From the NCBI GenBank assembly GCA_030867685.1, contig JAQOWU010000001.1, forward strand, positions 496,001 to 560,000: 64,000 bases of DNA, in the 5' to 3' direction. The notes below the pieces were generated by a model. The model was not told the DNA's origin. It saw nothing but the letters and a program-made list of their open reading frames with translations, and made no database searches. Made by a program: the position numbers and the translations under genes. This DNA comes from Wickerhamiella versatilis. Its lineage: Eukaryota. Below are positions 199 through 45,525 of the stretch, in pieces. Numbering within the stretch: the stretch's first letter is position 1; the number at the start of each line of letters is the position of its first letter.

Positions 199-2814
199 AT
201 GCAGCTGCTGCTGTGGCTTTTGTACTTGGTACAATGTTTCGCGCCTGTTCTATCCGTGAAGCATTGGATGTTTCGTAAATGTGAGCAGAATCCATTCTGT
301 CAGAGAGCTCGAGATCTCGCATCTCACAGTGGAAGTGAATACACTGTTAGTGAGGTAAAGCCTGGAGACAATGAAATTACTGGGTTCCTTGGCACTCCTG
401 GTGATAAGAGTTTACCATTTTCACTACAGGTGGTTTCTGATGGTGCACTACGCTTCCTTGTAGATGAGCCTGATCGCATTGTAGGCCCGGACTACCTTTC
501 AAATGCACGTTTCGACCCTGATGTGTTCATGCTTGACATGTCGAATAAGAGACGAATTCCGGAAGCAAAAATTGATGTGAAAAAAGATAAAGCTTCTATT
601 CATTTCGATGATGTTGAGGCAACCTTGTTCTTGTCACCCCTTAAGCTTGTTGTCGAGCGCGCTGGAGAACCGTTGGTGGTGCTCAATGAACATAAATTAC
701 TTCATATGGAGACGCTCAGGCAGAAATCTGATTCAGATGAACCTACGATGTGGGAAGATAGCTTTGATGGTCATACCGATAAGAAAATTCGAGGACCTGA
801 GTCTGTCACCGCTGATTTCACGTTTCCAGGAGCTCGTCATGTATACGGAATACCAGAGCACTCTGACTCTCTGTCTCTGAAAGATACAAGAAAAGAGCAC
901 ACAGATCCATATAGGATGTTCAACGTTGATATTTTCGAGTATGAAACAGAAAGTGAGATGCCTATGTACGGTTCTATTCCATTCATGTTGGGTTTACGGC
1001 CCGATGCATGTGCCGGTATTCTATGGCTAAACTCAGCAGATACATATGTTGATATTACCAAGGAAAAGGATTCGACTTGGACCCACTGGATCTCTGAAAC
1101 AGGAAAACTGGATGCATTCATATTTGTTGGAAAAACCCCCACTGATGTCGTTTCGAAGTATTCTGAGGTTGTAGGAACTAATGCATTGCCTCAGTTATGG
1201 GCAATTGCTTATCATCAGTGCAGATGGAACTATAATTCGGAAACTGATGTTTTGAATGTCAACAAGCAGTTTGATGATCATCTAATCCCATACGATGTCA
1301 TATGGCTGGATATCGAATATACTGGCCAGCGTAAATACTTCACGTGGAACGAGCATACTTTCCCGAATCCAGAAAAAATGCTGTTTGAACTAGATGAGAC
1401 CAAACGCAAACTAGTTCCACTTATTGATCCACATATCAAGGTTGCGTCAGACTACGATATTTACAATGACGTTAAAAAAGTTGCAGTTCAAAATGCGGAG
1501 GCATCAAAGCCGTTTGAAGGCCATTGTTGGCCTGGCAATTCTATTTGGATTGACACGATGAACCCAGAATGTTATAAGTATTGGAATAAATTCCACGCAA
1601 TGGGTGCTTTCGGCGGAAATGCGCCAAACCTTGGTATATGGAACGATATGAGCGAACCATCTGTCTTCAGTGGGTCGGAAACAACTGCTTATAAGGATCT
1701 TGTCCATTATGGCGGCTGGCAGCATCGCGATGTACACAATCTGTTTGGTCAAACTTTCACTAATGCAACTTTTGAAGCCCTTTTGCAGAGATATGACCAC
1801 AAGCAAAGACCATTTATTCTCACAAGGAGCTTTTTCGCAGGAAGTCAGCGCCTCGCTGCTACGTGGACTGGAGATAACCAGGCTGAATGGGAGTATCTTA
1901 GAGCAGCGACACCCACTATTCTTACTTTGGGAGTTGCTGGTATGCCTTTCTCTGGAGCGGATGTCGGTGGGTTTTTCCGCGATCCTGAGCCTGAGCTTCT
2001 AACTAGATGGTACCAGAGTGGTCTATTTTATCCCTTCTTCCGCGCTCACGCGCATGAAGATTCTAGGCGACGTGAGCCCTATCTGCTTGCACCACCATAC
2101 AATACTACCATTGCTGCTGCGATTGAACTTAGATACCAGCTTCTTCCACAGTTTTACACCGCTTTCTGGGAGTCTTCAATCAACCTTTCACCTGTCATGC
2201 GTCCAGTATGGTGGGAATACCCATCCGAAGAAGACTGGTACGATGTCGAGGACTCTTTTTTCATAGGTTCAAGTCTCTATGCCCACCCAGTCACCTCAAA
2301 GGACTCTGAGATAAACTTGAAACTCCCCCCTGGAGCTTGGTATGATTACTTTAGTGGTGCTAAGCCAAGCGAGGGTAAGCGTCATGTCGCTCTTGATGAA
2401 ATTCCACTATTTGTTCGTGGTGGATCTATAGTATTCAGACGGGATAGAATTCGCCGGTCTAGTGAGCTGACAATGAGAGATCCATACACCCTACTAGTAG
2501 CACTCAACGATGATGGAAGAGCTGAAGGGACTCTTTATGTTGATGATGGTATATCTTATGCATACGAGGAGGGCCGATATCTGATCACGGACGTCACATT
2601 CGCTGATGGCATTCTGCGCGGAACTCCTCGCCACTCGACTAAGGATCCGTTTGCAAGTGTACCCATTGAAAGAGTCATATTTTATGGTTTGGACAAACCT
2701 GAAAGCGCATCTACTTCAGGAAAGCCGCTTCAAGTTATTTCTCAGGACGATGGTTTTATTGTGCGTAACCCCCGGGTTAAGATAGGCGAAGCATGGGAAA
2801 TCAAATTTGACTAG
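199..2814 (+). CDS. ROT2: ER glucosidase II alpha subunit (GH31)
   Basis: GH31 motifs WLDIEY, WNDMSEPSVF and WTGDN. The start is moved from TTG127 to ATG199, which gives a signal peptide (MQLLLWLLYLVQCFAPVLS). Confidence 0.93.
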   Translation: MQLLLWLLYLVQCFAPVLSVKHWMFRKCEQNPFCQRARDLASHSGSEYTVSEVKPGDNEITGFLGTPGDKSLPFSLQVVSDGALRFLVDEPDRIVGPDYLSNARFDPDVFMLDMSNKRRIPEAKIDVKKDKASIHFDDVEATLFLSPLKLVVERAGEPLVVLNEHKLLHMETLRQKSDSDEPTMWEDSFDGHTDKKIRGPESVTADFTFPGARHVYGIPEHSDSLSLKDTRKEHTDPYRMFNVDIFEYETESEMPMYGSIPFMLGLRPDACAGILWLNSADTYVDITKEKDSTWTHWISETGKLDAFIFVGKTPTDVVSKYSEVVGTNALPQLWAIAYHQCRWNYNSETDVLNVNKQFDDHLIPYDVIWLDIEYTGQRKYFTWNEHTFPNPEKMLFELDETKRKLVPLIDPHIKVASDYDIYNDVKKVAVQNAEASKPFEGHCWPGNSIWIDTMNPECYKYWNKFHAMGAFGGNAPNLGIWNDMSEPSVFSGSETTAYKDLVHYGGWQHRDVHNLFGQTFTNATFEALLQRYDHKQRPFILTRSFFAGSQRLAATWTGDNQAEWEYLRAATPTILTLGVAGMPFSGADVGGFFRDPEPELLTRWYQSGLFYPFFRAHAHEDSRRREPYLLAPPYNTTIAAAIELRYQLLPQFYTAFWESSINLSPVMRPVWWEYPSEEDWYDVEDSFFIGSSLYAHPVTSKDSEINLKLPPGAWYDYFSGAKPSEGKRHVALDEIPLFVRGGSIVFRRDRIRRSSELTMRDPYTLLVALNDDGRAEGTLYVDDGISYAYEEGRYLITDVTFADGILRGTPRHSTKDPFASVPIERVIFYGLDKPESASTSGKPLQVISQDDGFIVRNPRVKIGEAWEIKFD

Positions 2815-2958
2815 AAAGTGATCTAAATTGGGATATAATCCTATCAAAAATATAAAACTAAAGGTATTAGGCATATTTGCAGGCTAGACCACATCACTGA
2901 TATCAAGAAACATTCCAAGTATCGCATGGGAGGGTAAGGTTTAGTTCAGGCGTAAGCT

Positions 2959-4017
2959 ATGAGCCAGGATGAACAAATTGAATCGTTCTGCAGAGGCATT
3001 CCAAAAATTGAACTGCACTGCCATTTATATGGAACTATTCGAAAATCTACATTTGAAGAACTAAACAAGGAGGCGGGTTGTCCTCTTTCATCCACTGAAA
3101 TCGATGAATTTTATACGCGTGGATCCAAGCCAGTAGGGGTACTTAGAATATTTCGGGCACTAGATTCCGACCTAATTCGGAAGCCTGAACATTTGGAAAG
3201 GATAACTGGTGAATATCTGGAAGACATAGCGCAGCATAATGTGCAATACTCTGAATTCTTTTGGAACCCCACAGGCACCGTTCGCATTTCACGGATCCCT
3301 TTTGTTGAGGCTCAACGTGCCATATTATCAGCTATGGAAAAGTCAACCGTTGATTCGAGGCTTATAATGTCCATAGATAGAGAGCAAAGTGCTGAGGAGG
3401 CGGTTGATATGGTCAGATGGATGATCCAACACCGATCAGAAAACGTGATTGGAATCGGTATTGACTATCGGGAGGAGCTGGGACCACCTGAAAAATTTGA
3501 GAAGGCATATCGTCTCGCTAAAGAGGCCGGGTTTCGAGCAACTGCACATGCAGGTGAATTCGGTTGTTCCCCGAAGAACATTAGAGCTGCTATAGATTTA
3601 TTGGCGGTCGATAGAGTGGACCACGGTTACACAGTGATCGAGGATCAAGAGTTGACTGAGAGCTGTATTCGGGATAATATTATATTTTGTGTCGTACCTA
3701 CGAATTCATACTATTTACGTACTTTGCCCCCGGAGGAATGGTCCCGAAAGCATCCTATAAGAGAGATGGTACGACTAGGTATACGGCTATTCCCCAATAC
3801 TGATGATCCCGCTTTTCACCATGTCACACCTACTGGTGCCTGGGCTATGATGGTTAAGTACTTTAATTGTGGAGTAAACGACCTCCGTCATTTTGTTATT
3901 AATAGTATAGATGCTTCCTGGCTTCCTGAATCTCGCAAAGAGCAATTACGGAAGGAATGGCCAGTTTATTTCGACAATACAGGCTTATCCTGTTTAGAAT
4001 CTTCTATAAGAGGTTAG
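2959..4017 (+). CDS. Adenosine/adenine deaminase family amidohydrolase, bacterial-like
   Basis: Metal-binding and catalytic motifs PKIELHCHL, AHAGE, RVDHG and NTDDP are all intact. Confidence 0.9.
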   Translation: MSQDEQIESFCRGIPKIELHCHLYGTIRKSTFEELNKEAGCPLSSTEIDEFYTRGSKPVGVLRIFRALDSDLIRKPEHLERITGEYLEDIAQHNVQYSEFFWNPTGTVRISRIPFVEAQRAILSAMEKSTVDSRLIMSIDREQSAEEAVDMVRWMIQHRSENVIGIGIDYREELGPPEKFEKAYRLAKEAGFRATAHAGEFGCSPKNIRAAIDLLAVDRVDHGYTVIEDQELTESCIRDNIIFCVVPTNSYYLRTLPPEEWSRKHPIREMVRLGIRLFPNTDDPAFHHVTPTGAWAMMVKYFNCGVNDLRHFVINSIDASWLPESRKEQLRKEWPVYFDNTGLSCLESSIRG

Positions 4018-4042
4018 GTTTCTGTTATCAGTGAAAGAAAAA

Positions 4043-5467
4043 ATGAACTTAGATTTTGGATCAGACATGGCGAAATTTGATGGAACTGTTACTTCGCTTG
4101 AGGAAGAGGAGGAAGCGGAGATTGATATGCGTCGCCTTACCAGGAAGGTAGACATCCGTATATTACCTCTACTTCTTTTAACCTACAGTCTACAATTCAT
4201 GGACAAGCTAGCCCTCTCAAACGCTTCGGTATACGGTATAAGAGATTCAAACAACATAGATGATTCACAGTATTCATGGGTGTCATCAATTTTCTATTTC
4301 GGATTTCTTGCTGGTCAGTTTCCGCTGGTAGAGCTGGCTAAAAAATATCCATTGGGTAAAATTGCTGGCCTTTCTGTGATGGTCTGGGGTGCTATATTAG
4401 CTTGCACCGCTGCATCTCATTCCTATGGCGCTTTACTTGCTTGCAGATTTCTATTGGGTTTATTTGAATCGGCTATATCGCCGACGTTTGTGCTCTTGAC
4501 CTCAAGGTGGTATACCCCTTCACAGCAGCCACTGCGAATAAGTTTTTGGTTTGCAGGAAATGATCTTGGTGGTATCGTAAGTGGGTTCATTGCGTTTGGA
4601 ATTGGTCACATCACGGGCTCGCTTTACCCATGGCAATACCTCTTCATCATATATGGTTGTGCCACTTTTGTGCTGGGGATTGTTCTTTTCTTTTTCCTGG
4701 CAGATGATCCATCTAGTGCTAAATTCTTGACTGACAATGAACGGTCATGGTATGCCCAAAAAAATCAAGTCTCAGCCAGGGAGCCATTCAATTGGTACCA
4801 GGCATTAGAGGCATTAATAGACCCTCAGTTATTGCTTTATATCTCTCTAACTGTGCTCAATATTCTTCCAAATGGCGGAGTGGTATCATACGGGTTAATT
4901 CTCGTCAAGTCGTTTGGTTTTTCCTCCATTGAAACCACTGCTTTACAGGTGCCAGGCTCTGCCATCACATGGATAGCTATATTATTATTCGGCTTGCTGT
5001 CTTCCAAAATTCCTAATTTCCGTTGTTATGCTCTAGCTCTTACTGTCCTTCTTCCAATTGTTGGGGCTAGTGTCCTCTACAGGTTACCGGAGTCACCCAG
5101 GGGAGTCAGACTAATGGCATATTATTTTCTCCTAGTACAGCCGGCGACATTCCCTCTTCTTCTGGCTATGATAACTTCCAATATTAAAGGGGCCACAAAG
5201 AAGCCAACATCAACTGCAATTATTTTTATTTGGTACTGCGCTTCTAATATAGCGGCACCTCAGCTATTTCGCGAAGCTGAAAAACCAGCATATCCTACGG
5301 CAATGAGAGCATGGATCGTATGCTTTGCCTTGACGGTTCTACTTTCAATGATACTACGCGCTTACTTGGGCTGGCAAAATAATCGTCGAAAAAAATCGCC
5401 AGCCGAAAATGTTTCGGAACCAGAAAAATCAGATCTCAAGGATTTTTCATTAATTTATCTGTATTAG
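4043..5467 (+). CDS. MFS anion:cation symporter (allantoate permease/DAL5-like family)
   Basis: LTRKVDIRILP, LQFMDK, QYSWVSSIFYFG and about 12 hydrophobic segments. First ATG is 4043 (the ORF track starts at GTG4031). Confidence 0.9.
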   Translation: MNLDFGSDMAKFDGTVTSLEEEEEAEIDMRRLTRKVDIRILPLLLLTYSLQFMDKLALSNASVYGIRDSNNIDDSQYSWVSSIFYFGFLAGQFPLVELAKKYPLGKIAGLSVMVWGAILACTAASHSYGALLACRFLLGLFESAISPTFVLLTSRWYTPSQQPLRISFWFAGNDLGGIVSGFIAFGIGHITGSLYPWQYLFIIYGCATFVLGIVLFFFLADDPSSAKFLTDNERSWYAQKNQVSAREPFNWYQALEALIDPQLLLYISLTVLNILPNGGVVSYGLILVKSFGFSSIETTALQVPGSAITWIAILLFGLLSSKIPNFRCYALALTVLLPIVGASVLYRLPESPRGVRLMAYYFLLVQPATFPLLLAMITSNIKGATKKPTSTAIIFIWYCASNIAAPQLFREAEKPAYPTAMRAWIVCFALTVLLSMILRAYLGWQNNRRKKSPAENVSEPEKSDLKDFSLIYLY

Positions 5468-5530
5468 GCACGCATTGATAGGCATAAAGTGGACCTCGGG
5501 TTAGGTTATAGGGGCCTCAGGTAGTACTTC

Positions 5531-6748
5531 ATGGATCTAATAGCGTCATCTGATTGGCGACGAAAGATAGTGAGGCGCTTTGGCCCTCACTGGATGGATC
5601 CACAACGTGTTTCTAAAAGCTACGATCATTTATATTTAAGCGCTGAAGTGGTTGGTCGTGATGATGTGGCTGACGCGCTTCGACAACGTCTAACTCCAGA
5701 ATTATTCCAGCAAGAGGCTCCACTATTAGAGACCCTACGACTACTGGCGGGTGACTGGTTAGAAGCACCTCTTCCTGTTTTTGTAGAGTCTGTCCCGGAT
5801 ACCCCTACATGGGCAGAGTTAATGCAGGGACTTAGTGATCGATCACTGGATTTCAGCCCTTCTTCATCAATGCATTCAAGTAATTCCTCTTCTGTTAGTG
5901 ATACTAGTGAAAATTCGTCCTTTGGTGAAGCACTACAGGATCAAGAGGTTTGTATTAAGGCACCAACATATATGGCACCTGCTATACCTAGTGAGCTAAG
6001 CCCGAGGCAAGTAATTGATGAGGCTAGGCTTGTCATGGCTGGCTTCCCTTCCGTTTTGGAATCAGTTCGCAAGATTCATGGTTTGTCAAGCCTCTGCAGT
6101 CAGGCTTATATTAAAGAACTATTAACTCAAAGAAAGCCGTTCAATGAGGCCCATACGCTTCTCCAGTGTTTAGCACAATGGCGCCTTCGATCAGAAAAAG
6201 GTGGTAATAAAGAAGTTGATGTCATCCAGGCAGACAATTCGGATATATCTAGTCCTCCCAATGACATTCACGAAGTACAGGTGAAATCGTGGCAATATCA
6301 TATCGAAAGCTTGCATAATAAAGTAAGAATTTTGCGACCGATCTTAGCCAGAGACTGGTCTATACTTGCAGGAATTTTTCTTGGACAGGATCCAAGAATG
6401 CTTGATTACATGTGGAGATGTCGGCATTTATTAACTCAACAGCACCGAATACCTGCTGCGGCTGAACTTTCTGTCAGTTGGCCCCACGCACCTTTTTACC
6501 TCGATAATGAGTGTATTCCAGTGGCAACCTCCTTGGCACCAGAAACATGGAATCATGTGTCAAGGTCTCATCTAAGGGATTCGTGGAAACGGATTCTGAA
6601 TGCTATTGCAGGACCACCAAGCCTAGAATCTGCTATCCTCCAGTGTGAAATGCATAAAATATCTACAGAAGTTGAAAATTTTATCAACAGCAGTTTGTCG
6701 CTGCAAATTGTCTTCCCGCTCACAAGCAAATCTGACAGTGTTATCTAG
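5531..6748 (+). CDS. Hypothetical protein; N-terminal part resembles fungal gamma-tubulin complex component GCP5
   Basis: 405-aa ORF from an ATG. Segments GRDDVADALRQRL, PTWAEL and RQVIDEARLVMAGFPS recall GCP5 N-terminal blocks. Confidence 0.5.
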   Translation: MDLIASSDWRRKIVRRFGPHWMDPQRVSKSYDHLYLSAEVVGRDDVADALRQRLTPELFQQEAPLLETLRLLAGDWLEAPLPVFVESVPDTPTWAELMQGLSDRSLDFSPSSSMHSSNSSSVSDTSENSSFGEALQDQEVCIKAPTYMAPAIPSELSPRQVIDEARLVMAGFPSVLESVRKIHGLSSLCSQAYIKELLTQRKPFNEAHTLLQCLAQWRLRSEKGGNKEVDVIQADNSDISSPPNDIHEVQVKSWQYHIESLHNKVRILRPILARDWSILAGIFLGQDPRMLDYMWRCRHLLTQQHRIPAAAELSVSWPHAPFYLDNECIPVATSLAPETWNHVSRSHLRDSWKRILNAIAGPPSLESAILQCEMHKISTEVENFINSSLSLQIVFPLTSKSDSVI

Positions 6749-6799: not shown

Positions 6800-7909
6800 A
6801 TGTCTGAGAAAGATCCAACATTCTTTGATATTCTCACAGGCTTGTATGTCAATGCTGTCGACAAAAAGGTTCCGAAGATTCGGAAACAGGTCGTACGGGC
6901 AAAACGGAAGCTGGACCCACAAGGAGAAAGATTCTGGCAGCAGATGACTCGCGTGGATAGAATGTTCAGGGAGAATCATGTAGTCAGTCGTACAAACAAG
7001 ATTTGGTTTGCCGTATCTATCCTCAATATTTTTTGGTTTGGAATTCTGATAGGCAGTCTACCAGACTGGGTTCATGTCGTATACACAGTTGAGGTTGCCT
7101 TTCTCTTGCCTATTCGTTTTATCACGTACAAACTACGCGGTATGCAATATTACCTGGCAGATATCTGCTACTACGTTAATTTTTTGACGTTCTTATACAT
7201 TTGGGTCTGGCCGGAGTCGAAAGTCTTGTGGATATCAATATACGCATTCAGTTTTGGCACCCTCTGTATGGCGGTGATTGTTTGGCGAAACTCGCTGGTA
7301 CTTCATTCCATCGATAAGACAACGAGTGCATTTATTCATCTCCTCCCCCCTACAACATTACATACCATCAACTTCCGAATCCCGGCACAATTCAAAGCAG
7401 AGCGTTTTCCTGCGGCCCTCAAGGTTGAAACATGGGCAACGTTGCGCGCTCTACTAATAACAACCGCATTTTATTGGGTATGGCAGGTTTCATATCAGTA
7501 TTTTATCACTTTTCGCAAGAAGGATAAGATCGCAAACGGAAGAGTCACAAGTTTTGAGTTTATGCGCAGGAAGTACGCCAAGACAGCAATTGGAAAATTT
7601 GTAAACTCACTACCTGGTGTTCTACCTCATATTGCATTTGCTGGGATTCAGTTCGGATTTCAGCTTGTTACTATGATCCCATGCCCGCTACTCTACAAGC
7701 ATGAAAGCCTCTCAACATGTTACCTTGTGTTCGTTCTATCAGTTGCTTCATATAATGGTGCAACTTACTATATAGATGTCTTTGGCGAGCGATTTCATAA
7801 GGAATTGAAAGCACTCCAAGAGGAGCTGGATGAAAGTGACGATGATCAATCATCGGAGGAATCTTCCTCAAAGTCCCATGAAGAGTATACACAAAAAAAG
7901 AATAAATAG
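6800..7909 (+). CDS. GPC1: Glycerophosphocholine acyltransferase (DUF2838), copy 1
   Basis: YYLADICYYVN, WRNSLVLHSIDKTTSAFIHLLPP, GRVTSF and YNGATYYIDVFG. First ATG is 6800. Confidence 0.85.
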   Translation: MSEKDPTFFDILTGLYVNAVDKKVPKIRKQVVRAKRKLDPQGERFWQQMTRVDRMFRENHVVSRTNKIWFAVSILNIFWFGILIGSLPDWVHVVYTVEVAFLLPIRFITYKLRGMQYYLADICYYVNFLTFLYIWVWPESKVLWISIYAFSFGTLCMAVIVWRNSLVLHSIDKTTSAFIHLLPPTTLHTINFRIPAQFKAERFPAALKVETWATLRALLITTAFYWVWQVSYQYFITFRKKDKIANGRVTSFEFMRRKYAKTAIGKFVNSLPGVLPHIAFAGIQFGFQLVTMIPCPLLYKHESLSTCYLVFVLSVASYNGATYYIDVFGERFHKELKALQEELDESDDDQSSEESSSKSHEEYTQKKNK

Positions 7910-8405: not shown

Positions 8406-9593
8406 ATGCTAATTGAGACTAGGGATAAGCCCACAGTAGTCGATCTAACGAAACTTTATGTGGATACGTTTGATGATCACGTTCCACGCTTGCGGAAGCA
8501 TGTTGATCAAATGCGGCACAAGTGGGGCCCTAGCAGACGGCGAATTGAGGACAAACTGAAGCAGCAGATTCAGAGGCTTGATAAGACATTCAATGAGGAG
8601 TCGGTTGCAAGTCGCGTCGATAAAATATGGTTTGCAGTTTCTGTTCTCAACATTTTTTGGTTTGGAGTGTTTATAGGCAGTATGCCACAATGGGTCCACG
8701 TAATTTATACAGTCCAACTCGCTATCTTGCTTCCGATTCGGTTCTATACCTTTTTCTGCAAAGACTGGCAATATTACCTTGCGGATTTGTGCTACTTTGT
8801 GAACTTGATCACTATGCTATACATATGGGTTTGGCCTCAATCCAGCTTTTTGTGGATTTCATCTTACGCTTTCAGCTTCGGTACGCTATGTTTGGCTGTT
8901 GTTCTGTGGCGAAACTCATTTGTACTTCATTCCGTTGAGAAGACCACTAGCACCGTCATACATGTACTCCCGCCCGTGATTCTTCACACTATTAACTTTC
9001 GGATTCCAAATGAACTGAAGCGCAGTCGGTTTCCGGGTGCCTTATCCGTTGGTACGTGGACAGGCTTACGCTCTGTCATGATAACTACGGTCACTTATTT
9101 ACTATGGCAATTATTTTACCATTACTTTATCACTATTCGGTGTCGAGAACACATCGCTCGTGGTCGAGTAACGAGCTTTGAGTTCCTAAGGCGAAAGTAT
9201 GCGAAGGCTTGGGTGGGAAAATTTGTAAATTCGCTTCCCGGGCATTTCCCGCATGTAGCCTATGCACTTATTCAATTTGGACTACAGCTTTTAACCATGG
9301 TCCCGATTCCCTTATTCTACCATTATGAATGGCTGTCAACAGCCTATCTCATCGCTATCTTCTCTGTCGCATCTTATAACGGTGCTAGCTACTACGTAGA
9401 CGTCTTTGGGAAGCGTTTCCACAAAGAGCTTGTGAAATTGCAGAAAGAATTAGAGAATGATCAATACCACAAGTCTTCCGTCTTGCGTGAGGCCTCTTCC
9501 AAAAACAATATCCTCGCTTCAGAAAAAGTCAAGATGCCATTTTCTACAAGTGATCCTTTTGAGTGTAAGAGTGCTCCTGTGTTAGCCTATTAG
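8406..9593 (+). CDS. GPC1: Glycerophosphocholine acyltransferase (DUF2838), copy 2
   Basis: Same motifs as the upstream paralogue (YYLADLCYFVN, WRNSFVLHSVEKTTS, YNGASYYVDVFG). Confidence 0.85.
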   Translation: MLIETRDKPTVVDLTKLYVDTFDDHVPRLRKHVDQMRHKWGPSRRRIEDKLKQQIQRLDKTFNEESVASRVDKIWFAVSVLNIFWFGVFIGSMPQWVHVIYTVQLAILLPIRFYTFFCKDWQYYLADLCYFVNLITMLYIWVWPQSSFLWISSYAFSFGTLCLAVVLWRNSFVLHSVEKTTSTVIHVLPPVILHTINFRIPNELKRSRFPGALSVGTWTGLRSVMITTVTYLLWQLFYHYFITIRCREHIARGRVTSFEFLRRKYAKAWVGKFVNSLPGHFPHVAYALIQFGLQLLTMVPIPLFYHYEWLSTAYLIAIFSVASYNGASYYVDVFGKRFHKELVKLQKELENDQYHKSSVLREASSKNNILASEKVKMPFSTSDPFECKSAPVLAY

Positions 9594-38097: not shown

Positions 38098-38168
38098 GCA
38101 TTGGTGGTTTAGTGGTAAAATTGGTCGTTGCCATCGACTAGCCCCCGGTTCGATTCCGGGTCAATGCA
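38098..38168 (+). tRNA. tRNA-Gly (GCC)
   Basis: 71-nt cloverleaf. Acceptor stem GCATTGG/TCAATGC, anticodon loop TTGCCAT, T-loop GGTTCGATTCC, and a T-rich terminator downstream. Confidence 0.96.
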
Positions 38169-42133: not shown

Positions 42134-43729
42134 ATGTATTTCAGCCTAGGAGCTGCAATATGGATGGGGGTGAAACCATTGGTTAAGATTTATGGTACCA
42201 TTGGTGCTGGCTATCTAGCTTCACACAAAGGGATTCTGACCATGGAGTCAGGCCGGGCTATAGCATGGCTAGTCCTGTACTTCTTTATGCCAGCATTGAT
42301 TTTCTATAATATTGTTTCGAATATTATGGATACAGATATTGAGATGCTGGGAGTTCTGTGTCTTTCAGGAGCAATATATTACGTTCTCGGCCTTCTCTTT
42401 GGTCTATGTGTTTATCTAGTGTCACCAATTCCCCGTGGCTGGTTTGGTGGTTTGCTGCTTTGTTGTATGATCAATAATGCCTCAGATATGCCCATAGCTT
42501 ATGTTCAAACTATAGGGGGCTCTGGAGTAATGCCTTCTGGCTCAAGTTCTCTGGGTGGAGCATATACCGTTCTTTTCAGCTTGATGTTTAATATAATCAC
42601 ATTCAATCTTGGTGGAACTAGGCTGGTTGAGTGGGATTTTAATCGCTTCGATCCCAGCCGGAATGAGCCAACAAAACCACTATTATCGTGGAAGGCGTGT
42701 AAAGATTTTTACCGTCGCCATTTAGGAAAAAACGATGCAACAACCAAAGAGGAAGCCCAAACTGAGCATCACAACTCTATAAGTAGGACTCGAACTATGT
42801 CATCGACGGATAGCAGAGATGGCAATTCTGATCTGGCACGCTCGTATTTCGGCCGTACCGTTTCACGGGCAAGCGACTCTGTTGCTTACTCTAGTAGCAA
42901 TGTTGATACGGATACAAATCAGCTTCAGAGGTACAATACCGCACAGTCTTTTATCTCGACCATGGCCGGGGCTGATTCCGCCAGGTTTAATCGTGACGAC
43001 TCAGACGGACAAGATACGGCTTCTATATCTGGAATAATTCCATTGCATGTTGTGAAAAGCTCTCAACCAAAGTCGAGACCGCAAAAGATTAAACAGTGGT
43101 GGTTAAAGAAATGGAAGAAGTTTGAGAAAAAGAATTATGCTACTATGTATATTTCTCATTTTATATGTGATCTGGCAGCACCTCAAATGCTCGCTTTAAT
43201 GTCTGGCATTGCTATTGCGATGATACCATGGGCCAAAAGGTGTTTTTCCAACCAACAACATATTGGTGGATTCAGAGACCCACCAGATGGACTACCTCCA
43301 CTAGATTTTATCATGGTTTTTCTAGATTTTTTTGCTGGGGCTCAAATTCCATTAGGTCTAATAATGGTTGGTGCCACAATTCAGCAACTCAAGATCGGCC
43401 GTCTTGTCCCCGGATTCAAGCGTACTGCAGTTCTCATAGCCGCATTCAAATTGGCAATTCTACCAATTATTGCTTGTGGTTGGATTGTGGCACTACGTGA
43501 ACTCGGCTGGATTGACAAGGATGATCCCTTGGCCGCCATAGTTTTAGCTGTGGATGCCGCAACACCCTCTGCTACCGTGCAAGTTTACGTTACTGCGTTA
43601 CACAGCGACCCTAATGGCGAAAAGCTTGAACTGAACTCTTTCGGTTATTGCCTAATTATTCAATATATTTTCATGCCCATATCTCTGACAATCGTCGTTG
43701 CTTTCGTGCTGAAACACTTCTCCGCTTAA
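42134..43729 (+). CDS. ECM3: Auxin-efflux-carrier-family (PIN-like) membrane transporter, Ecm3-like, copy 1
   Basis: LGAAIWMGVKPLVKIY, NASDMPIAYVQT, FNLGG and PPDGLPPLDF, in a 5+5 TM layout around a hydrophilic loop. Confidence 0.8.
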   Translation: MYFSLGAAIWMGVKPLVKIYGTIGAGYLASHKGILTMESGRAIAWLVLYFFMPALIFYNIVSNIMDTDIEMLGVLCLSGAIYYVLGLLFGLCVYLVSPIPRGWFGGLLLCCMINNASDMPIAYVQTIGGSGVMPSGSSSLGGAYTVLFSLMFNIITFNLGGTRLVEWDFNRFDPSRNEPTKPLLSWKACKDFYRRHLGKNDATTKEEAQTEHHNSISRTRTMSSTDSRDGNSDLARSYFGRTVSRASDSVAYSSSNVDTDTNQLQRYNTAQSFISTMAGADSARFNRDDSDGQDTASISGIIPLHVVKSSQPKSRPQKIKQWWLKKWKKFEKKNYATMYISHFICDLAAPQMLALMSGIAIAMIPWAKRCFSNQQHIGGFRDPPDGLPPLDFIMVFLDFFAGAQIPLGLIMVGATIQQLKIGRLVPGFKRTAVLIAAFKLAILPIIACGWIVALRELGWIDKDDPLAAIVLAVDAATPSATVQVYVTALHSDPNGEKLELNSFGYCLIIQYIFMPISLTIVVAFVLKHFSA

Positions 43730-43929: not shown

Positions 43930-45525
43930 ATGGACTTTAGTATAAGAGCTGCCATTTGGATTGGGGTGAAACCTCTATTCAAGGTATATGGCACAATAGC
44001 GGCGGGATATATTGCTTCGTCTAAAGGTGTTCTTACCGTAGAGGCGGGGCGTACAATCTCTTGGCTAGTCTTGTACTTTTTCATGCCAGCCCTTATCTTT
44101 TATAACATTGTTTCGAATATAAAGGATACAGATATCAAAATGTTAGGAGTATTGGATCTGTCTGCTTTCATCTATTATATCATTGGATTATGTTTTGGTG
44201 TTATCGTTTATTTGATCTCACCAATTCCACGAGGATGGTTCGGTGGACTGCTACTTTGTACACTTCTTAACAATTCCTCTGACATGCCCATCGCATATGT
44301 TCAGACACTCGGAGATTCTCAGCAGATGGCGAAAGGGTCGAGTGCCTTAGGAGGTGCATATGTCGTTCTTTTTTCCCTGGTGACCAACCTAATCACCTTT
44401 AACCTTGGAGGAACTAGACTAGTAGAGTGGGATTTTGCCCGACATGATCCCCACCGGGATGAACCAACAGTCCCCTTGATATCGTGGAAATCTTTTATGA
44501 ATTTGTGGCGGTCTATGACGAAAAAACCTGAAAAGAGTGAGGTTGAATCTTCTCATGAAGAGCCGCAATCTATATACGAGCAACGTCCGCGAAGAGGATC
44601 AAATTACGAATTGTCGAGTGCTTACTTTGGTCGGGTTCGCTCTCGCGCCAGTGAATCAGTTATTTTGTCCCGTGAACGGCCAGATATATCTGAAAGAGAC
44701 AATCCGCTTCGCAGATACAGAACTTCCGGCTCATTTTTATCGGTAATGAGTGGAGCTGATAGCGATGACAGGGAGTGGGCTGAGGATGCTGTTGTTGATG
44801 CTAATGACGAGTCGGCGGTAGAGGAACCCGAGCAGCCCGAAAAAAGTGCTAGCTCTCCACAGACTCAGTCGAAAGCTTCTAGGTTCAAAGCTCGTCTCAA
44901 AAAGAACTGGAGGAGATTCGAGCATAAAAACCTTGCCACTACTTATATCTGCCATTTTCTTGAAGACATATTAAGCCCCCAAATAATTGCTGTCATACTT
45001 GGTATTACAATTGCGATGATTCCATGGGCAAAAAGATGCTTCTCTAATCAACAAACTATACATGGCTTCAAAGACCCACCAGACGAGCTTCCACCTTTAG
45101 ATTTCCTAATGGTTTTTTTTGAATTCTTTGCCGGAGCTCAAATTCCTTTAGGTCTTATCATGGTTGGAGCATCTATTCAGCGCCTTAAGATTGGCCGCCT
45201 TGTGCCTGGATTCTGGCGGACTGCTTTGATTGTGACTGCTTTCAAATTGGCTATATTACCAATTATCGCATGTGGCTGGATCTCTCGATTAAGAAAAATT
45301 GGTTGGATTGATAGAGATGATCCGTTGGCTGCTGTGGTATTGGCAGTAGGAGGTGCAACACCATCGGCAACAGTTCAGATTTATATCACTGCATTGCACA
45401 GTGATCCTAATGGTGAACAGCTTGAACTCAACTGTTTTGGCACGTGCTTGATAATGCAGTATATATGTCTACCTATCACTCTGACATTTGTGGTCGCCTT
45501 TGTGTTGAAAAACTTTGCATCATGA
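43930..45525 (+). CDS. ECM3: Ecm3-like membrane transporter, copy 2
   Basis: Clear paralogue of the upstream gene with near-identical TM regions. Confidence 0.8.
   Translation: MDFSIRAAIWIGVKPLFKVYGTIAAGYIASSKGVLTVEAGRTISWLVLYFFMPALIFYNIVSNIKDTDIKMLGVLDLSAFIYYIIGLCFGVIVYLISPIPRGWFGGLLLCTLLNNSSDMPIAYVQTLGDSQQMAKGSSALGGAYVVLFSLVTNLITFNLGGTRLVEWDFARHDPHRDEPTVPLISWKSFMNLWRSMTKKPEKSEVESSHEEPQSIYEQRPRRGSNYELSSAYFGRVRSRASESVILSRERPDISERDNPLRRYRTSGSFLSVMSGADSDDREWAEDAVVDANDESAVEEPEQPEKSASSPQTQSKASRFKARLKKNWRRFEHKNLATTYICHFLEDILSPQIIAVILGITIAMIPWAKRCFSNQQTIHGFKDPPDELPPLDFLMVFFEFFAGAQIPLGLIMVGASIQRLKIGRLVPGFWRTALIVTAFKLAILPIIACGWISRLRKIGWIDRDDPLAAVVLAVGGATPSATVQIYITALHSDPNGEQLELNCFGTCLIMQYICLPITLTFVVAFVLKNFAS

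What the first reader, a model, noticed from the sequence alone, without database searches (positions are those of the whole stretch)
2959..4017. Deaminase looks horizontally acquired from bacteria
Segments such as FYTRGSKPVGVLRIFRALD, YSEFFWNPTGTVR, IGIDYRE and VVPTNSYYLRTL resemble, from my recollection, a proteobacterial adenosine-deaminase-like subfamily rather than yeast Aah1. The gene is intronless. Bacterial gene acquisition is well known in Wickerhamiella/Starmerella yeasts. Substrate specificity of this subfamily is uncertain and may not be adenosine.
Basis: inference. Interest (0 to 1): 0.7.

Follow-up and report, generated by a model that had tools for sequence, protein, structure and literature searches.

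The report
Bacterial-type purine deaminase in a yeast
This yeast gene encodes a purine deaminase that budding yeasts once acquired from soil bacteria and now keep beside a fungal transporter gene; the transfer is real, but the same kind of transfer has been reported in the wine yeast Brettanomyces since 2007.

Summary
Observation confirmed. ORF 2959-4017 (+) encodes a 352-aa A_deaminase protein containing all four quoted segments.

Interpretation supported.
- Apart from a few yeast sequences, its closest relatives are Burkholderiales proteins at 52-58% identity. PDB 4gxw matches at E 1.3e-120, against 1e-32 for adenine deaminases.
- In a careful ML tree, nine yeast-like sequences form one clade (100/99). 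That clade is nested with Oxalobacteraceae (96/91) inside a Burkholderiales clade.
- The gene sits among ordinary yeast genes. Its composition matches the host (GC3 38% against 89% in bacteria). It has no intron. A close relative transcribes it from a start about 10 nt upstream of the ATG.
- It is paired with a fungal Dal5-family MFS permease. The pairing recurs in Hyphopichia, Priceomyces and three unnamed lineages.
- In bacteria the gene lies beside uptake genes in 75 of 80 loci.
- All catalytic residues are kept. The positions that define adenosine or adenine specificity differ, so the substrate is unknown.

A horizontally transferred "adenyl deaminase" was reported in Dekkera bruxellensis in 2007. 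I therefore rate this a new member of a known kind, of modest interest.

The parts
2959..4017 (+). Coding sequence of the 352-aa bacterial-type A_deaminase (4gxw-type subfamily), stop codon included
   Evidence: ORF; translation; PF00962 at E 1.3e-48; 4gxw_A at E 1.3e-120; tree placement; RNA coverage in a close relative.
2815..2958 (+). 144-bp upstream intergenic region. It holds the promoter and a very short 5' leader, with an apparent transcript 5' end at about 2949.
   Evidence: The GH31 ORF ends at 2814. RNA depth drops to about 3-5 in bin 2796-2919 and rises again from 2920 (table 2). Five poly(A)-library reads carry a 21-nt non-genomic adaptor-like tail just before 2948 (table 7). Reading that tail as a template-switch oligo is my recollection.
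4018..4042 (+). 25-bp spacer between the deaminase stop codon and the ATG of the permease ORF
   Evidence: It is the shortest of the 37 intergenic gaps in the window, but 9 of 37 gaps are 63 bp or less. RNA depth falls to about 0-1 from bin 4036-4159 onwards, so the two genes are not one abundant transcript.
4043..5467 (+). 474-aa MFS permease of the fungal Dal5 / anion:cation symporter family, the conserved neighbour of the deaminase in several yeasts
   Evidence: PF07690 at E 3.4e-37; TIGR00893 at 2.8e-58, below its cut-off. Its best relatives are the neighbours of the yeast deaminases. It forms a 9-row yeast clade (SH-aLRT 100) that is sister to a Pezizomycotina clade (98).

Best explanation
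ORF 2959-4017 is a functional, expressed, zinc-dependent hydrolytic deaminase of the adenosine/adenine deaminase superfamily. It belongs to the subfamily typified by PDB 4gxw, which is otherwise found in Burkholderiales bacteria. An ancestor of several budding-yeast lineages acquired it from such a bacterium. The nearest bacterial relatives in my tree are of the Oxalobacteraceae type, where the gene closes an operon of porin, ABC importer and nucleoside hydrolase. The transfer is old: composition and codon use are now those of the host, and the yeast copies are only 57-63% identical to one another outside the closest pair. In yeast the gene became coupled to a native fungal Dal5-family MFS permease, and the two genes have since evolved together as a pair. 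Inferred mechanism: the permease brings in an external 6-aminopurine-type compound. The enzyme replaces its C6 amino group, or a substituted amino group, with oxygen, using zinc-activated water. This releases ammonia (or an amine) and a 6-oxopurine for nitrogen supply and purine salvage. Shown here: the homology, the tree placement, integration in the yeast chromosome, transcription, the conserved pairing and the conserved catalytic residues. Inferred: the direction and single origin of the transfer, the functional coupling with the permease, and the reaction. Not known: the physiological substrate. The enzyme lacks the specificity residues of both adenosine and adenine deaminases.
For: Homology. 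PF00962 matches at E 1.3e-48 and 4gxw_A at E 1.3e-120 over residues 9-340, against 1.2e-32 for the next chain.

Relatives. In one search, 15 of the 120 listed hits carry an organism name: 1 yeast (Hyphopichia burtonii, 62%), 13 from Burkholderiales genera and 1 'Pseudomonadota bacterium'. In one-genome-per-species prokaryote contigs, 527 of 589 candidate stretches encode a relative. The best 80 are 52.7-58.5% identical, and every title that names a genus names a Burkholderiales genus. The exceptions are a few MAGs labelled only Proteobacteria, Pseudomonadota, beta proteobacterium or Burkholderiales/Burkholderiaceae, and one labelled Rhizobiales.

Tree (67 rows, LG+C20+F+G4 PMSF, careful search).
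- Window + P0004: 100/100.
- Seven yeast-like rows: 100/98.
- These plus Lachancea mirantina and the fusion protein P0258: 100/99.
- That clade with Collimonas, Janthinobacterium, Duganella, Herbaspirillum and an Acidovorax-labelled MAG: 96/91.
- All of these inside a 56-row clade: 99/94.

Integration. The flanking ORFs are a GH31 glucosidase, an MFS, DUF2838, a cytochrome-b5 desaturase, a RING protein, an ArfGAP and a CDC20-type WD40 protein. Gene GC is 43.6% and GC3 38.0%, against window-ORF means of 46.9% and 43.2%. Its codon-usage distance ranks 17th of 37. The bacterial homologues have median GC 68.0% and GC3 88.9%.

Expression. In four RNA runs of a close relative, depth over 3044-3787 is about 8-31 per orientation. 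It is about 16-64 over the GH31 gene and 0-6 over the permease.

Constraint. Of the 22 listed differences inside the ORF, 16 are synonymous and 6 are not.

Catalytic residues, by HMMER alignment to mouse ADA: H20/H22 = H15/H17, H197 = H214, E200 = E217, H222 = H238, D282/D283 = D295/D296.

Pairing with the permease.
- Consecutive accessions in H. burtonii: ODV69117.1 and ODV69118.1.
- Consecutive accessions and locus tags in Priceomyces carsonii: CUM68119.1 and CUM68118.1, PRCAT00005836001 and PRCAT00005835001.
- The same longest-contig lengths for P0004/P0138 (120711), P0016/P0142 (16203) and P0020/P0141 (3753).
- The permease tree repeats the groupings of the deaminase tree.

Bacterial context, 80 loci. 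A TctC receptor lies immediately downstream in 53. A nucleoside hydrolase lies immediately upstream in 22, with ABC importer genes upstream in 19-20.

Literature. Passages seen in PMC3923673 and PMC2459174 describe a horizontally transferred proteobacterial or Burkholderia-like adenyl/adenosine deaminase in D. bruxellensis.
Against: - treekit flags the amino-acid make-up of six yeast rows (window, Hyphopichia, Priceomyces, Lachancea, P0007, P0016) and of one outgroup row (P0271) as unlike the rest. Composition could therefore help to pull the yeast rows together.
- No canonical fungal Aah1 sequence could be put in the tree. The outgroups are unnamed representatives.
- Only the best 120 of 3751 hits and of 3855 hits are listed, so further fungal homologues may be hidden. 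No Brettanomyces or Ogataea deaminase appeared, so orthology with the published DbHAD1 is indirect.
- The eukaryotic origin of P0004, P0007, P0016, P0020 and P0258 is inferred from sequence signatures and linked permeases, not from names.
- The permease is almost silent where the deaminase is expressed, so co-regulation is not shown.
- The donor lineage rests on one 96/91 branch.
- No assay exists for any member that I could find. Searches for '4GXW' and 'cog1816' gave nothing relevant.
Confidence: 0.8

Rival explanations
1. It is a plain adenosine deaminase, as database names say. It gives the yeast an adenosine-to-inosine step that Saccharomycotina otherwise lack.
For: Sources name its relatives 'adenosine deaminase'. 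All catalytic residues of ADA are present. A nucleoside hydrolase lies next to the gene in 22 of 80 bacterial loci and is fused to it in P0258, which links it to nucleoside metabolism. A passage in PMC4022394 states that Blastobotrys adeninivorans lacks an adenosine deaminase.
Against: TIGR01430 scores 194.8 bits against a cut-off of 216.55. The eight NF0068xx adenosine deaminase equivalogs score 32.8-168.4 bits against cut-offs of 412-549. The residue aligned with ADA Asp19 is Tyr24 here, and Phe or Leu in relatives. The segment aligned with ADA 'DLAGDE' reads 'GIDYRE' here. Asp19 is the 5'-OH ligand by my recollection of the ADA structures. The neighbouring transporters, a TctC receptor and an anion:cation-symporter MFS, are not the usual nucleoside carriers.
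Confidence: 0.2
2. It is an adenine (free base) deaminase, redundant with or replacing Aah1.
For: The second- and third-best PDB matches, 3rys and 3ou8, are enzymes that I recall as characterised adenine deaminases. Loss of the ribose-binding Asp fits a free-base substrate. A nucleoside hydrolase upstream would deliver free bases.
Against: Those enzymes carry Glu where this family has Tyr, Phe or Leu, and 'DSAE'/'DSSE' where this family has an invariant 'DYRE'. Similarity to them is only E 1e-28 to 1e-32. Per the legend of Fig. S5 of PMC3923673, D. bruxellensis keeps a canonical adenine deaminase beside the transferred gene, which argues against simple redundancy.
Confidence: 0.25
3. It acts on a modified or substituted 6-aminopurine, for example N6-alkyl or N6-acyl adenines from RNA breakdown or cytokinins, possibly one that carries a carboxylate. 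The permease imports this compound.
For: Family-specific invariant residues sit at specificity positions (Y/F/L24, Y170, R171). Both transporter types linked to the gene belong to families whose known substrates are organic anions: TctC/Bug receptors in 53 of 80 bacterial loci, and a Dal5/ACS-family MFS in yeasts (the substrate ranges are recalled). The nucleoside hydrolase link suggests nucleoside-derived bases. I recall that a cytokinin deaminase and an aminofutalosine deaminase exist within the same COG, so unusual N6 specificities have precedent.
Against: The case is purely contextual. No member has been assayed, no ligand-bound structure was seen, and the charge argument is indirect.
Confidence: 0.35
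4. The patchy occurrence in distant yeasts reflects yeast-to-yeast transfer of the deaminase-permease pair, or several independent bacterial transfers, rather than one ancient gain followed by many losses.
For: Holders span a CTG=Leu yeast (the window), two species of the CUG-Ser clade (Hyphopichia and Priceomyces; clade membership recalled), a Lachancea, and Brettanomyces/Ogataea by the literature. The two gene trees are congruent, so the pair moves or descends as a unit.
Against: Yeast copies are as divergent from each other (57-63%) as from bacteria (52-58%), which fits old vertical descent. All nine eukaryote-like rows form one clade at 100/99, which argues against many separate bacterial donors. 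No species tree or presence/absence map could be built here.
Confidence: 0.3
5. The gene is bacterial contamination or an assembly chimera, or the transfer ran from fungi to bacteria.
For: None beyond the bacterial affinity itself.
Against: The stretch is contiguous with eukaryotic genes on both sides, and its composition is that of the host. Stretch 2800-5600 is held with half or more of its sampled words in 19 listed runs; the 20 holding rows come from 11 studies. It is covered by poly(A) RNA reads. The yeast clade is nested within wide bacterial diversity, with 527 relatives among species-representative prokaryote genomes.
Confidence: 0.02

Closest known systems
DbHAD1, the horizontally transferred 'adenyl deaminase' of Dekkera/Brettanomyces bruxellensis. 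Woolfit et al. 2007, Eukaryot Cell 6:721, was not held; I know it from passages in PMC3923673 and PMC2459174 and from recollection of its abstract.
   Same: An ADA-family gene in a budding yeast whose nearest relatives are proteobacterial, Burkholderia-like. It is kept beside a canonical adenine deaminase. PMC3923673 suggests it predates the Brettanomyces-Ogataea split. The Brettanomyces MFS P0146, whose cluster includes the deposit ABP33175.1 'putative permease', falls inside the clade of deaminase-linked permeases.
   Different: A different host, with CTG read as Leu and a very compact genome. Direct orthology could not be tested because no Brettanomyces deaminase sequence was retrievable. 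The conserved pairing with the permease, the Oxalobacteraceae-type sister group and the bacterial operon contexts are not mentioned in any passage I saw.
PDB 4gxw (depositor's name 'Adenosine deaminase'). I recall it as a structural-genomics COG1816 amidohydrolase from Burkholderia ambifaria with bound zinc and no published function.
   Same: E 1.3e-120 over residues 9-340. The same family motifs are present: FYxRGxKPVGVL, FFWNPTGTV, GIGIDYRE and VVPTNSYYLRTL.
   Different: Bacterial protein with 'HLLG', 'EFGMPW' and 'PTLH' where the window protein has 'HLYG', 'EFGCSP' and 'PAFH'. Its function is equally unknown. My search for '4GXW' found one unrelated paper.
Canonical adenosine deaminase (mouse ADA 2ada/1a4l; E. 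coli Add; TIGR01430)
   Same: TIM-barrel amidohydrolase with identical metal ligands and catalytic Glu, His and Asp.
   Different: E about 1e-21. Below the curated cut-offs. Asp19 is replaced by Tyr24, and Gly184-Asp185 by Tyr170-Arg171.
ADA-fold adenine deaminases (3rys, 3ou8; fungal Aah1 by recollection)
   Same: The same fold and catalytic set, and the nearest characterised enzymes after 4gxw.
   Different: E 1e-28 to 1e-32. Glu in place of Tyr24, and 'DSAE'/'DSSE' in place of 'DYRE'.

Membership tests
Pfam A_deaminase (PF00962), amidohydrolase-superfamily purine deaminases | Full-length match to the family model above the gathering score | tested here: met
   166.3 bits against a cut-off of 27, residues 15-332 on model positions 1-325 of 330.
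Pfam A_deaminase (PF00962), amidohydrolase-superfamily purine deaminases | Metal ligands and catalytic residues (ADA H15, H17, H214, D295; E217, H238, D296) | tested here: met
   H20, H22, H197, D282, E200, H222 and D283 align with them. All are invariant in 16 of 16 aligned family members. The numbering and roles of the ADA residues are recalled.
Canonical adenosine deaminase (Add/ADA; NCBIfam equivalogs) | Score at or above the curated equivalog cut-off | tested here: not met
   TIGR01430 scores 194.8 bits against 216.55. The eight NF0068xx models score 32.8-168.4 bits against 412-549.
Canonical adenosine deaminase (Add/ADA; NCBIfam equivalogs) | Ribose-binding Asp after the HxH motif (ADA D19) and the 'AGD' gate strand (G184, D185) | tested here: not met
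   Tyr24, Tyr170 and Arg171 occupy these aligned positions. Relatives have Phe or Leu at position 24.
ADA-fold adenine deaminase (3rys/3ou8 type, Aah1) | Close sequence relationship and Glu after the HxH motif ('HIEG'/'HLEG') | tested here: not met
   E 1.2e-32 and 1.5e-28 only. Tyr24 aligns with the Glu. No fungal Aah1 sequence was available for comparison.
4gxw-type Burkholderiales deaminase subfamily | High full-length similarity and placement within the clade | tested here: met
   E 1.3e-120. 52.7-58.5% identity to the 80 best prokaryote loci. Inside the 56-row clade at 99/94.
4gxw-type Burkholderiales deaminase subfamily | Enzymatic activity and substrate of the subfamily | not testable with these tools
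   No assay was found.
Yeast horizontally transferred 'adenyl deaminase' (DbHAD1 group) | Yeast gene of proteobacterial (Burkholderia-like) ancestry, distinct from the canonical adenine deaminase | tested here: met
   for this gene. The definition comes from passages in PMC3923673 and PMC2459174.
Yeast horizontally transferred 'adenyl deaminase' (DbHAD1 group) | Orthology with the D. bruxellensis / O. parapolymorpha genes in one tree | not testable with these tools
   No Brettanomyces or Ogataea deaminase appeared among the 120 rows listed in either. The only indirect support is the Brettanomyces permease inside the linked-permease clade.

The most novel reading that the evidence does not exclude
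The bacterial deaminase and the fungal Dal5-family permease form a two-gene uptake-and-deamination cassette. It has been kept, and perhaps passed between distantly related budding yeasts, because it opens a nutrient that neither adenosine nor adenine deaminases handle: an anionic or N6-substituted purine released from decaying RNA or plant material. On this reading the 4gxw subfamily is a new substrate specificity within the ADA fold. Bacteria serve it with TctC receptors or with an ABC importer plus nucleoside hydrolase. Yeasts serve it with an MFS.
Probability: 0.2. Interest if true: 0.6.

Novelty: new member of a known kind. Interest (0 to 1): 0.35.

Why it matters
This is a clean, well-supported case of a bacterial metabolic gene fixed in a yeast chromosome. 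It extends a transfer first seen in Brettanomyces to more, and more distant, yeasts.

Two parts go beyond the passages I saw in print. First, the gene is coupled to a native fungal permease, and the pair has evolved together. Second, in bacteria the gene almost always sits beside uptake genes (75 of 80 loci), and in one eukaryotic lineage it is fused to a nucleoside hydrolase. Together these point to a dedicated route for an external purine-like compound, through an enzyme subfamily that has a crystal structure but no known substrate.

Finding that substrate would annotate thousands of bacterial genes (3751 hits at E <= 1e-10). It would also explain why food-fermentation and spoilage yeasts keep the gene.

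Tried and rejected
- **Own genome.** Not held. I could not look for a canonical AAH1, for paralogues or for the species identity.
- **Woolfit 2007 (PMC1865652).** Not held, so its tree and any statement on neighbouring genes were not seen. Supplements are closed, so Fig. S5 of PMC3923673 (the DbHAD1 tree) was not seen either.
- **Other papers.** The Hellborg 2008 DAL5 paper has no mention of a deaminase. Neither do the Brettanomyces comparative paper, the 2009 yeast HGT paper or the 2026 W/S-clade HGT paper. A search for 'adenosine deaminase' + 'horizontal gene transfer' + 'Hyphopichia' found 0 papers.
- **Earlier findings of this scan.** Nothing by place, sequence or words.
- **ESM Atlas.** Only generic bacterial adenosine deaminase clusters, no use for fungal range.
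- **Metagenome contig scan with the yeast-only profile.** 309 relatives; the best 80 are all at the bacterial level (52-58%), with no yeast-type contig.
- **Co-transfer of nucleoside hydrolase and deaminase.** Rejected. The N-terminal hydrolase domain of fusion P0258 is only 26-31% identical to the bacterial operon hydrolases, and the window has no such gene (best E 0.38).
- **Bicistronic deaminase-permease transcript.** Rejected for the sampled conditions: depth falls to about 0-1 after 4036.
- **First pass at bacterial gene calling.** Picking the longest ORF selected antisense shadow ORFs. It was replaced by a GC-position filter and by tblastn counts.
- **Sequencing-run search.** No RNA holder listed among the indexed runs. 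RNA evidence comes only from the four raw-read runs that were laid.
- **Structure prediction and complex prediction.** Not run. A 1e-120 match to a solved structure already fixes the fold, and the tools return no coordinates for judging the pocket.
Full report
**1. The observation**

One search lists an ATG-to-stop ORF at 2959..4017 on the + strand, 352 aa. Pfam A_deaminase (PF00962) covers residues 15-332 at E 1.3e-48. The frame is uninterrupted, and RNA reads show no joints, so 'intronless' holds.

**2. What it resembles**

- Against solved structures, the best chain is 4gxw_A at E 1.3e-120 over residues 9-340.
- The next chains are 3rys (1.2e-32), 3ou8 (1.5e-28) and mouse ADA (about 1e-21).
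- All 10 NCBIfam models listed fall below their curated cut-offs. TIGR01430 scores 194.8 against 216.55. The eight adenosine deaminase equivalogs score 32.8-168.4 against 412-549.

The protein therefore belongs to the ADA superfamily, but to none of the curated adenosine deaminase families.

**3. Relatives**

The word-indexed search found 3751 proteins at E <= 1e-10 and listed the best 120.

- The top five are a 99% variant (P0003), an 80% relative (P0004), P0005 at 63%, P0006 at 62% and P0007 at 59%.
- The cluster of P0005 contains a Priceomyces carsonii protein. P0006 is from Hyphopichia burtonii.
- Of the 15 rows that carry an organism name, 1 is a yeast, 13 are Burkholderiales genera (Variovorax, Ramlibacter, Herbaspirillum, Hydrogenophaga, Acidovorax) and 1 is a 'Pseudomonadota bacterium'.

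A profile built from seven yeast-like sequences added Lachancea mirantina LAMI_0B05974g at 55%.

The exhaustive search of 50%-identity representatives shows a tight subfamily: one representative at 57%, then 52%, 47%, 47% and 40%. Below that lies the general ADA background at about 30-35%.

A scan of one genome per prokaryote species gave 527 relatives among 589 candidate stretches. The best 80 are 52.7-58.5% identical. Every title that names a genus names a Burkholderiales genus. The exceptions are some MAGs with only higher-rank labels and one labelled Rhizobiales. A metagenome scan with the yeast-only profile gave 309 relatives but no yeast-type contig; its best 80 are at 52-58%.

**4. Tree**

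The tree has 67 rows and 356 columns, built with LG+C20+F+G4 by PMSF in a careful search (the quick tree is). Support is given as ultrafast bootstrap / SH-aLRT.

- Window + P0004: 100/100.
- Seven yeast-like rows (window, P0004, Priceomyces, P0007, Hyphopichia, P0016, P0020): 100/98.
- These plus Lachancea mirantina and the C-terminal domain of fusion protein P0258: 100/99.
- This nine-row clade with Collimonas, Janthinobacterium, Duganella, Herbaspirillum and an Acidovorax-labelled MAG pair: 96/91.
- All of these within a 56-row clade: 99/94.

The rows were a chosen sample:

| Source | Rows used |
|---|---|
| Yeast-like sequences | 9 |
| Genome loci | 28 of 80 |
| Unnamed top hits | 17 |
| Unnamed representatives (outgroups) | 13 |

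Caveats: treekit flags the amino-acid make-up of six yeast rows and one outgroup row as deviant, and no named fungal Aah1 could be included.

A shared derived residue supports the clade. Cys11 is present in all nine eukaryote-like sequences, where the nine bacterial sequences aligned have Val, Leu or Phe.

**5. It is a resident yeast gene**

- *Neighbours.* The neighbouring ORFs encode a GH31 glucosidase, an MFS, two DUF2838 proteins, a cytochrome-b5 desaturase, a RING protein, a Cys/Met PLP enzyme, an ArfGAP, a CNNM protein, a ferric reductase and a CDC20-type WD40 protein.
- *Composition.* Gene GC is 43.6% and GC3 38.0%. The 37 window ORFs average 46.9% (sd 2.4) and 43.2% (sd 4.2). The gene's codon-usage distance to the rest ranks 17th of 37. 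The homologous bacterial genes have median GC 68.0% and GC3 88.9%. Local GC shows no step.
- *Genetic code.* CTG codons sit at invariant Leu positions: L19 and L87 of the deaminase, and L219 of the permease, where 13 of 13 homologues have Leu. The host therefore reads CTG as Leu.
- *Occurrence.* Stretch 2800-5600 is held by 20 listed runs from 11 studies, many of them food-fermentation metagenomes. Nine runs may be the source itself.

**6. Expression**

Four raw-read RNA runs, carrying the species label of a run that holds 83% of the sampled words, were laid on 2300-6000. Most reads are 95-99% alike, so they come from a close relative and not from the same strain.

| Region | Depth per orientation |
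|---|---|
| GH31 gene (2300-2795) | about 16-64 |
| Intergenic bin 2796-2919 | about 3-5 in the three paired runs (X21-X23); 4.7 and 20 in the poly(A) run X24 |
| Deaminase (3044-3787) | about 8-31 in most bins (3.3 in one orientation of X24 at 3044-3167) |
| Permease (4036-5523) | 0-6 |
| Next ORF (from 5524) | about 10-25 in the paired runs; about 2-12 in X24 |

Five reads of the poly(A) run carry a 21-nt non-genomic tail just before 2948. I recognise it, from memory, as the end of a template-switch oligo. That places the mRNA 5' end about 10 nt before the ATG.

The deaminase is thus its own transcription unit. The permease is nearly silent under these conditions.

Of the 22 differences listed inside the ORF, 16 are synonymous and 6 are not. 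A further 52 differences across the whole stretch were not shown, so this is only indicative of purifying selection.

**7. The partner permease**

ORF 4043-5467 begins 25 bp after the deaminase stop codon. That is the shortest of 37 intergenic gaps, but 9 of 37 are 63 bp or less, and ORFs of 200 aa or more already cover 74% of the window. The ORF encodes a 474-aa MFS of the anion:cation symporter / Dal5 type.

Its best relatives mirror those of the deaminase:

| Permease | Identity | Link to a deaminase |
|---|---|---|
| P0138 | 73% | Longest contig 120711, as for deaminase P0004 |
| P0139 | 54% | P. carsonii PRCAT00005835001; the deaminase is PRCAT00005836001 |
| P0141 | 49% | Longest contig 3753, as for P0020 |
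| P0142 | 48% | Longest contig 16203, as for P0016 |
| P0143 | 44% | H. burtonii ODV69118.1; the deaminase is ODV69117.1 |

After these hits come Brettanomyces and many Pezizomycotina proteins.

In a quick ML tree of 34 chosen rows, the linked permeases plus the Brettanomyces pair form one clade (SH-aLRT 100). That clade is sister (98) to a Pezizomycotina clade. Its inner groupings repeat those of the deaminase tree: window + P0138, and Hyphopichia + P0142 + P0141.

So the permease is fungal, the deaminase is bacterial, and the two have evolved as a pair. Adjacency in the other yeasts is inferred from consecutive accessions and equal contig lengths, not read from DNA.

**8. Bacterial context**

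Among the 80 genome loci:

- A TctC (Bug-type) periplasmic receptor gene lies immediately downstream on the same strand in 53.
- A divergent LysR regulator lies upstream in 43.
- An inosine-uridine nucleoside hydrolase gene lies immediately upstream in 22. In 19-20 of the 80 loci it is preceded by porin, solute-binding protein, permease and ABC ATPase genes.
- Together, 75 of 80 loci put the deaminase directly beside an uptake-linked gene.

Among the 80 metagenome loci, many of them short, the corresponding counts are 38 (TctC) and 15 (nucleoside hydrolase).

The bacterial sister group of the yeast clade is the set with the ABC importer and nucleoside hydrolase operon.

P0258 is an unnamed 679-aa protein that fuses a nucleoside hydrolase domain to a deaminase of this clade. 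Its hydrolase part is only 26-31% identical to the bacterial operon hydrolases. The fusion is therefore a second, independent functional link, not evidence that the two genes were transferred together.

**9. Mechanism**

By HMMER alignment to mouse ADA, the residues correspond as follows:

| Window protein | Mouse ADA |
|---|---|
| H20, H22 | H15, H17 |
| H197 | H214 |
| E200 | E217 |
| H222 | H238 |
| D282, D283 | D295, D296 |

All are invariant in the 16-sequence alignment. The enzyme should therefore carry out the standard zinc-activated-water attack at C6 of a purine-like ring.

The specificity positions differ from both known types. ADA Asp19 aligns with Tyr24 (Phe or Leu in relatives), whereas the adenine deaminases 3rys and 3ou8 have Glu there. 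ADA 'DLAGDE' and the adenine deaminase 'DSAE'/'DSSE' align with an invariant 'GIDYRE'. The roles of these ADA residues are recalled from the ADA structural literature.

I conclude that the reaction type is safe and the substrate is open. My estimates are: adenine 0.25, adenosine 0.2, and a modified or substituted 6-aminopurine 0.35, possibly an anionic one. The last estimate reflects that both linked transporter families are known, by my recollection, for organic anions. The remainder covers anything else.

**10. Comparison with the literature**

[quoted passage not shown] It also mentions a separate canonical adenine deaminase.
- PMC2459174 (passage seen) says that the D. bruxellensis ADA gene groups with Burkholderia.
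- Woolfit 2007 itself was not held.
- The Brettanomyces permease cluster includes ABP33175.1 'putative permease' and lies within the linked-permease clade. This fits DbHAD1 being an orthologue with the same neighbour, but I could not retrieve DbHAD1 to test it.

The kind of event is therefore known. What appears unreported in the passages and searches I made is its presence in this yeast, Hyphopichia, Priceomyces and Lachancea, the co-evolving permease partner, and the bacterial contexts. Large HGT catalogues in supplements that I could not open may well list it.

**11. Verdict**

The gene is a genuine, old, domesticated bacterial gene in a yeast chromosome. It is a new member of a known kind, of modest interest (0.35). 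The open question worth pursuing is the substrate of this structurally solved but functionally uncharacterised deaminase subfamily and of its transporter partners.

Noticed in passing
window 6800-7909 and 8406-9593 (+): Two tandem DUF2838 (PF10998) genes of 369 and 395 aa, 59% identical over 371 residues. This is an old tandem duplication just downstream of the locus.
   Followed up: partly
window 42134-43729 and 43930-45525 (+): Two tandem ORFs, both of 531 aa, both matching Mem_trans (PF03547, auxin-efflux-carrier type), 63% identical over their full length.
   Followed up: partly
window 5531-6748 (+): A 405-aa ORF with no Pfam family. It is nevertheless transcribed in the relative's RNA runs, at depth about 10-25 per orientation from 5524 in the three paired runs and about 2-12 in the poly(A) run.
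   Followed up: no
whole window: Very compact gene arrangement. ORFs of 200 aa or more cover 74% of the 64 kb, and 9 of 37 gaps between them are 63 bp or less. Three same-strand gaps measure exactly 51 bp.
   Followed up: partly
protein P0258 (unnamed Logan contig, 61292 bp): A 679-aa natural fusion of an inosine-uridine nucleoside hydrolase domain with a deaminase of the yeast-like clade. In the tree it groups with Lachancea mirantina at 99/94. Its organism is unknown.
   Followed up: partly
locus L062 (6001-7008): A MAG labelled 'uncultured Rhizobiales bacterium' carries a deaminase that sits among Burkholderiales sequences (100/98 with unnamed P0018). This could be a binning error or a bacterial transfer.
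   Followed up: no
window 4043-5467 (+): The permease is almost untranscribed (depth 0-6) in the four RNA runs where both of its neighbours are expressed. This suggests tight conditional control.
   Followed up: no
window 38098-38168 (+): tRNA-Gly(GCC) is the only tRNA gene found in the window.
   Followed up: no
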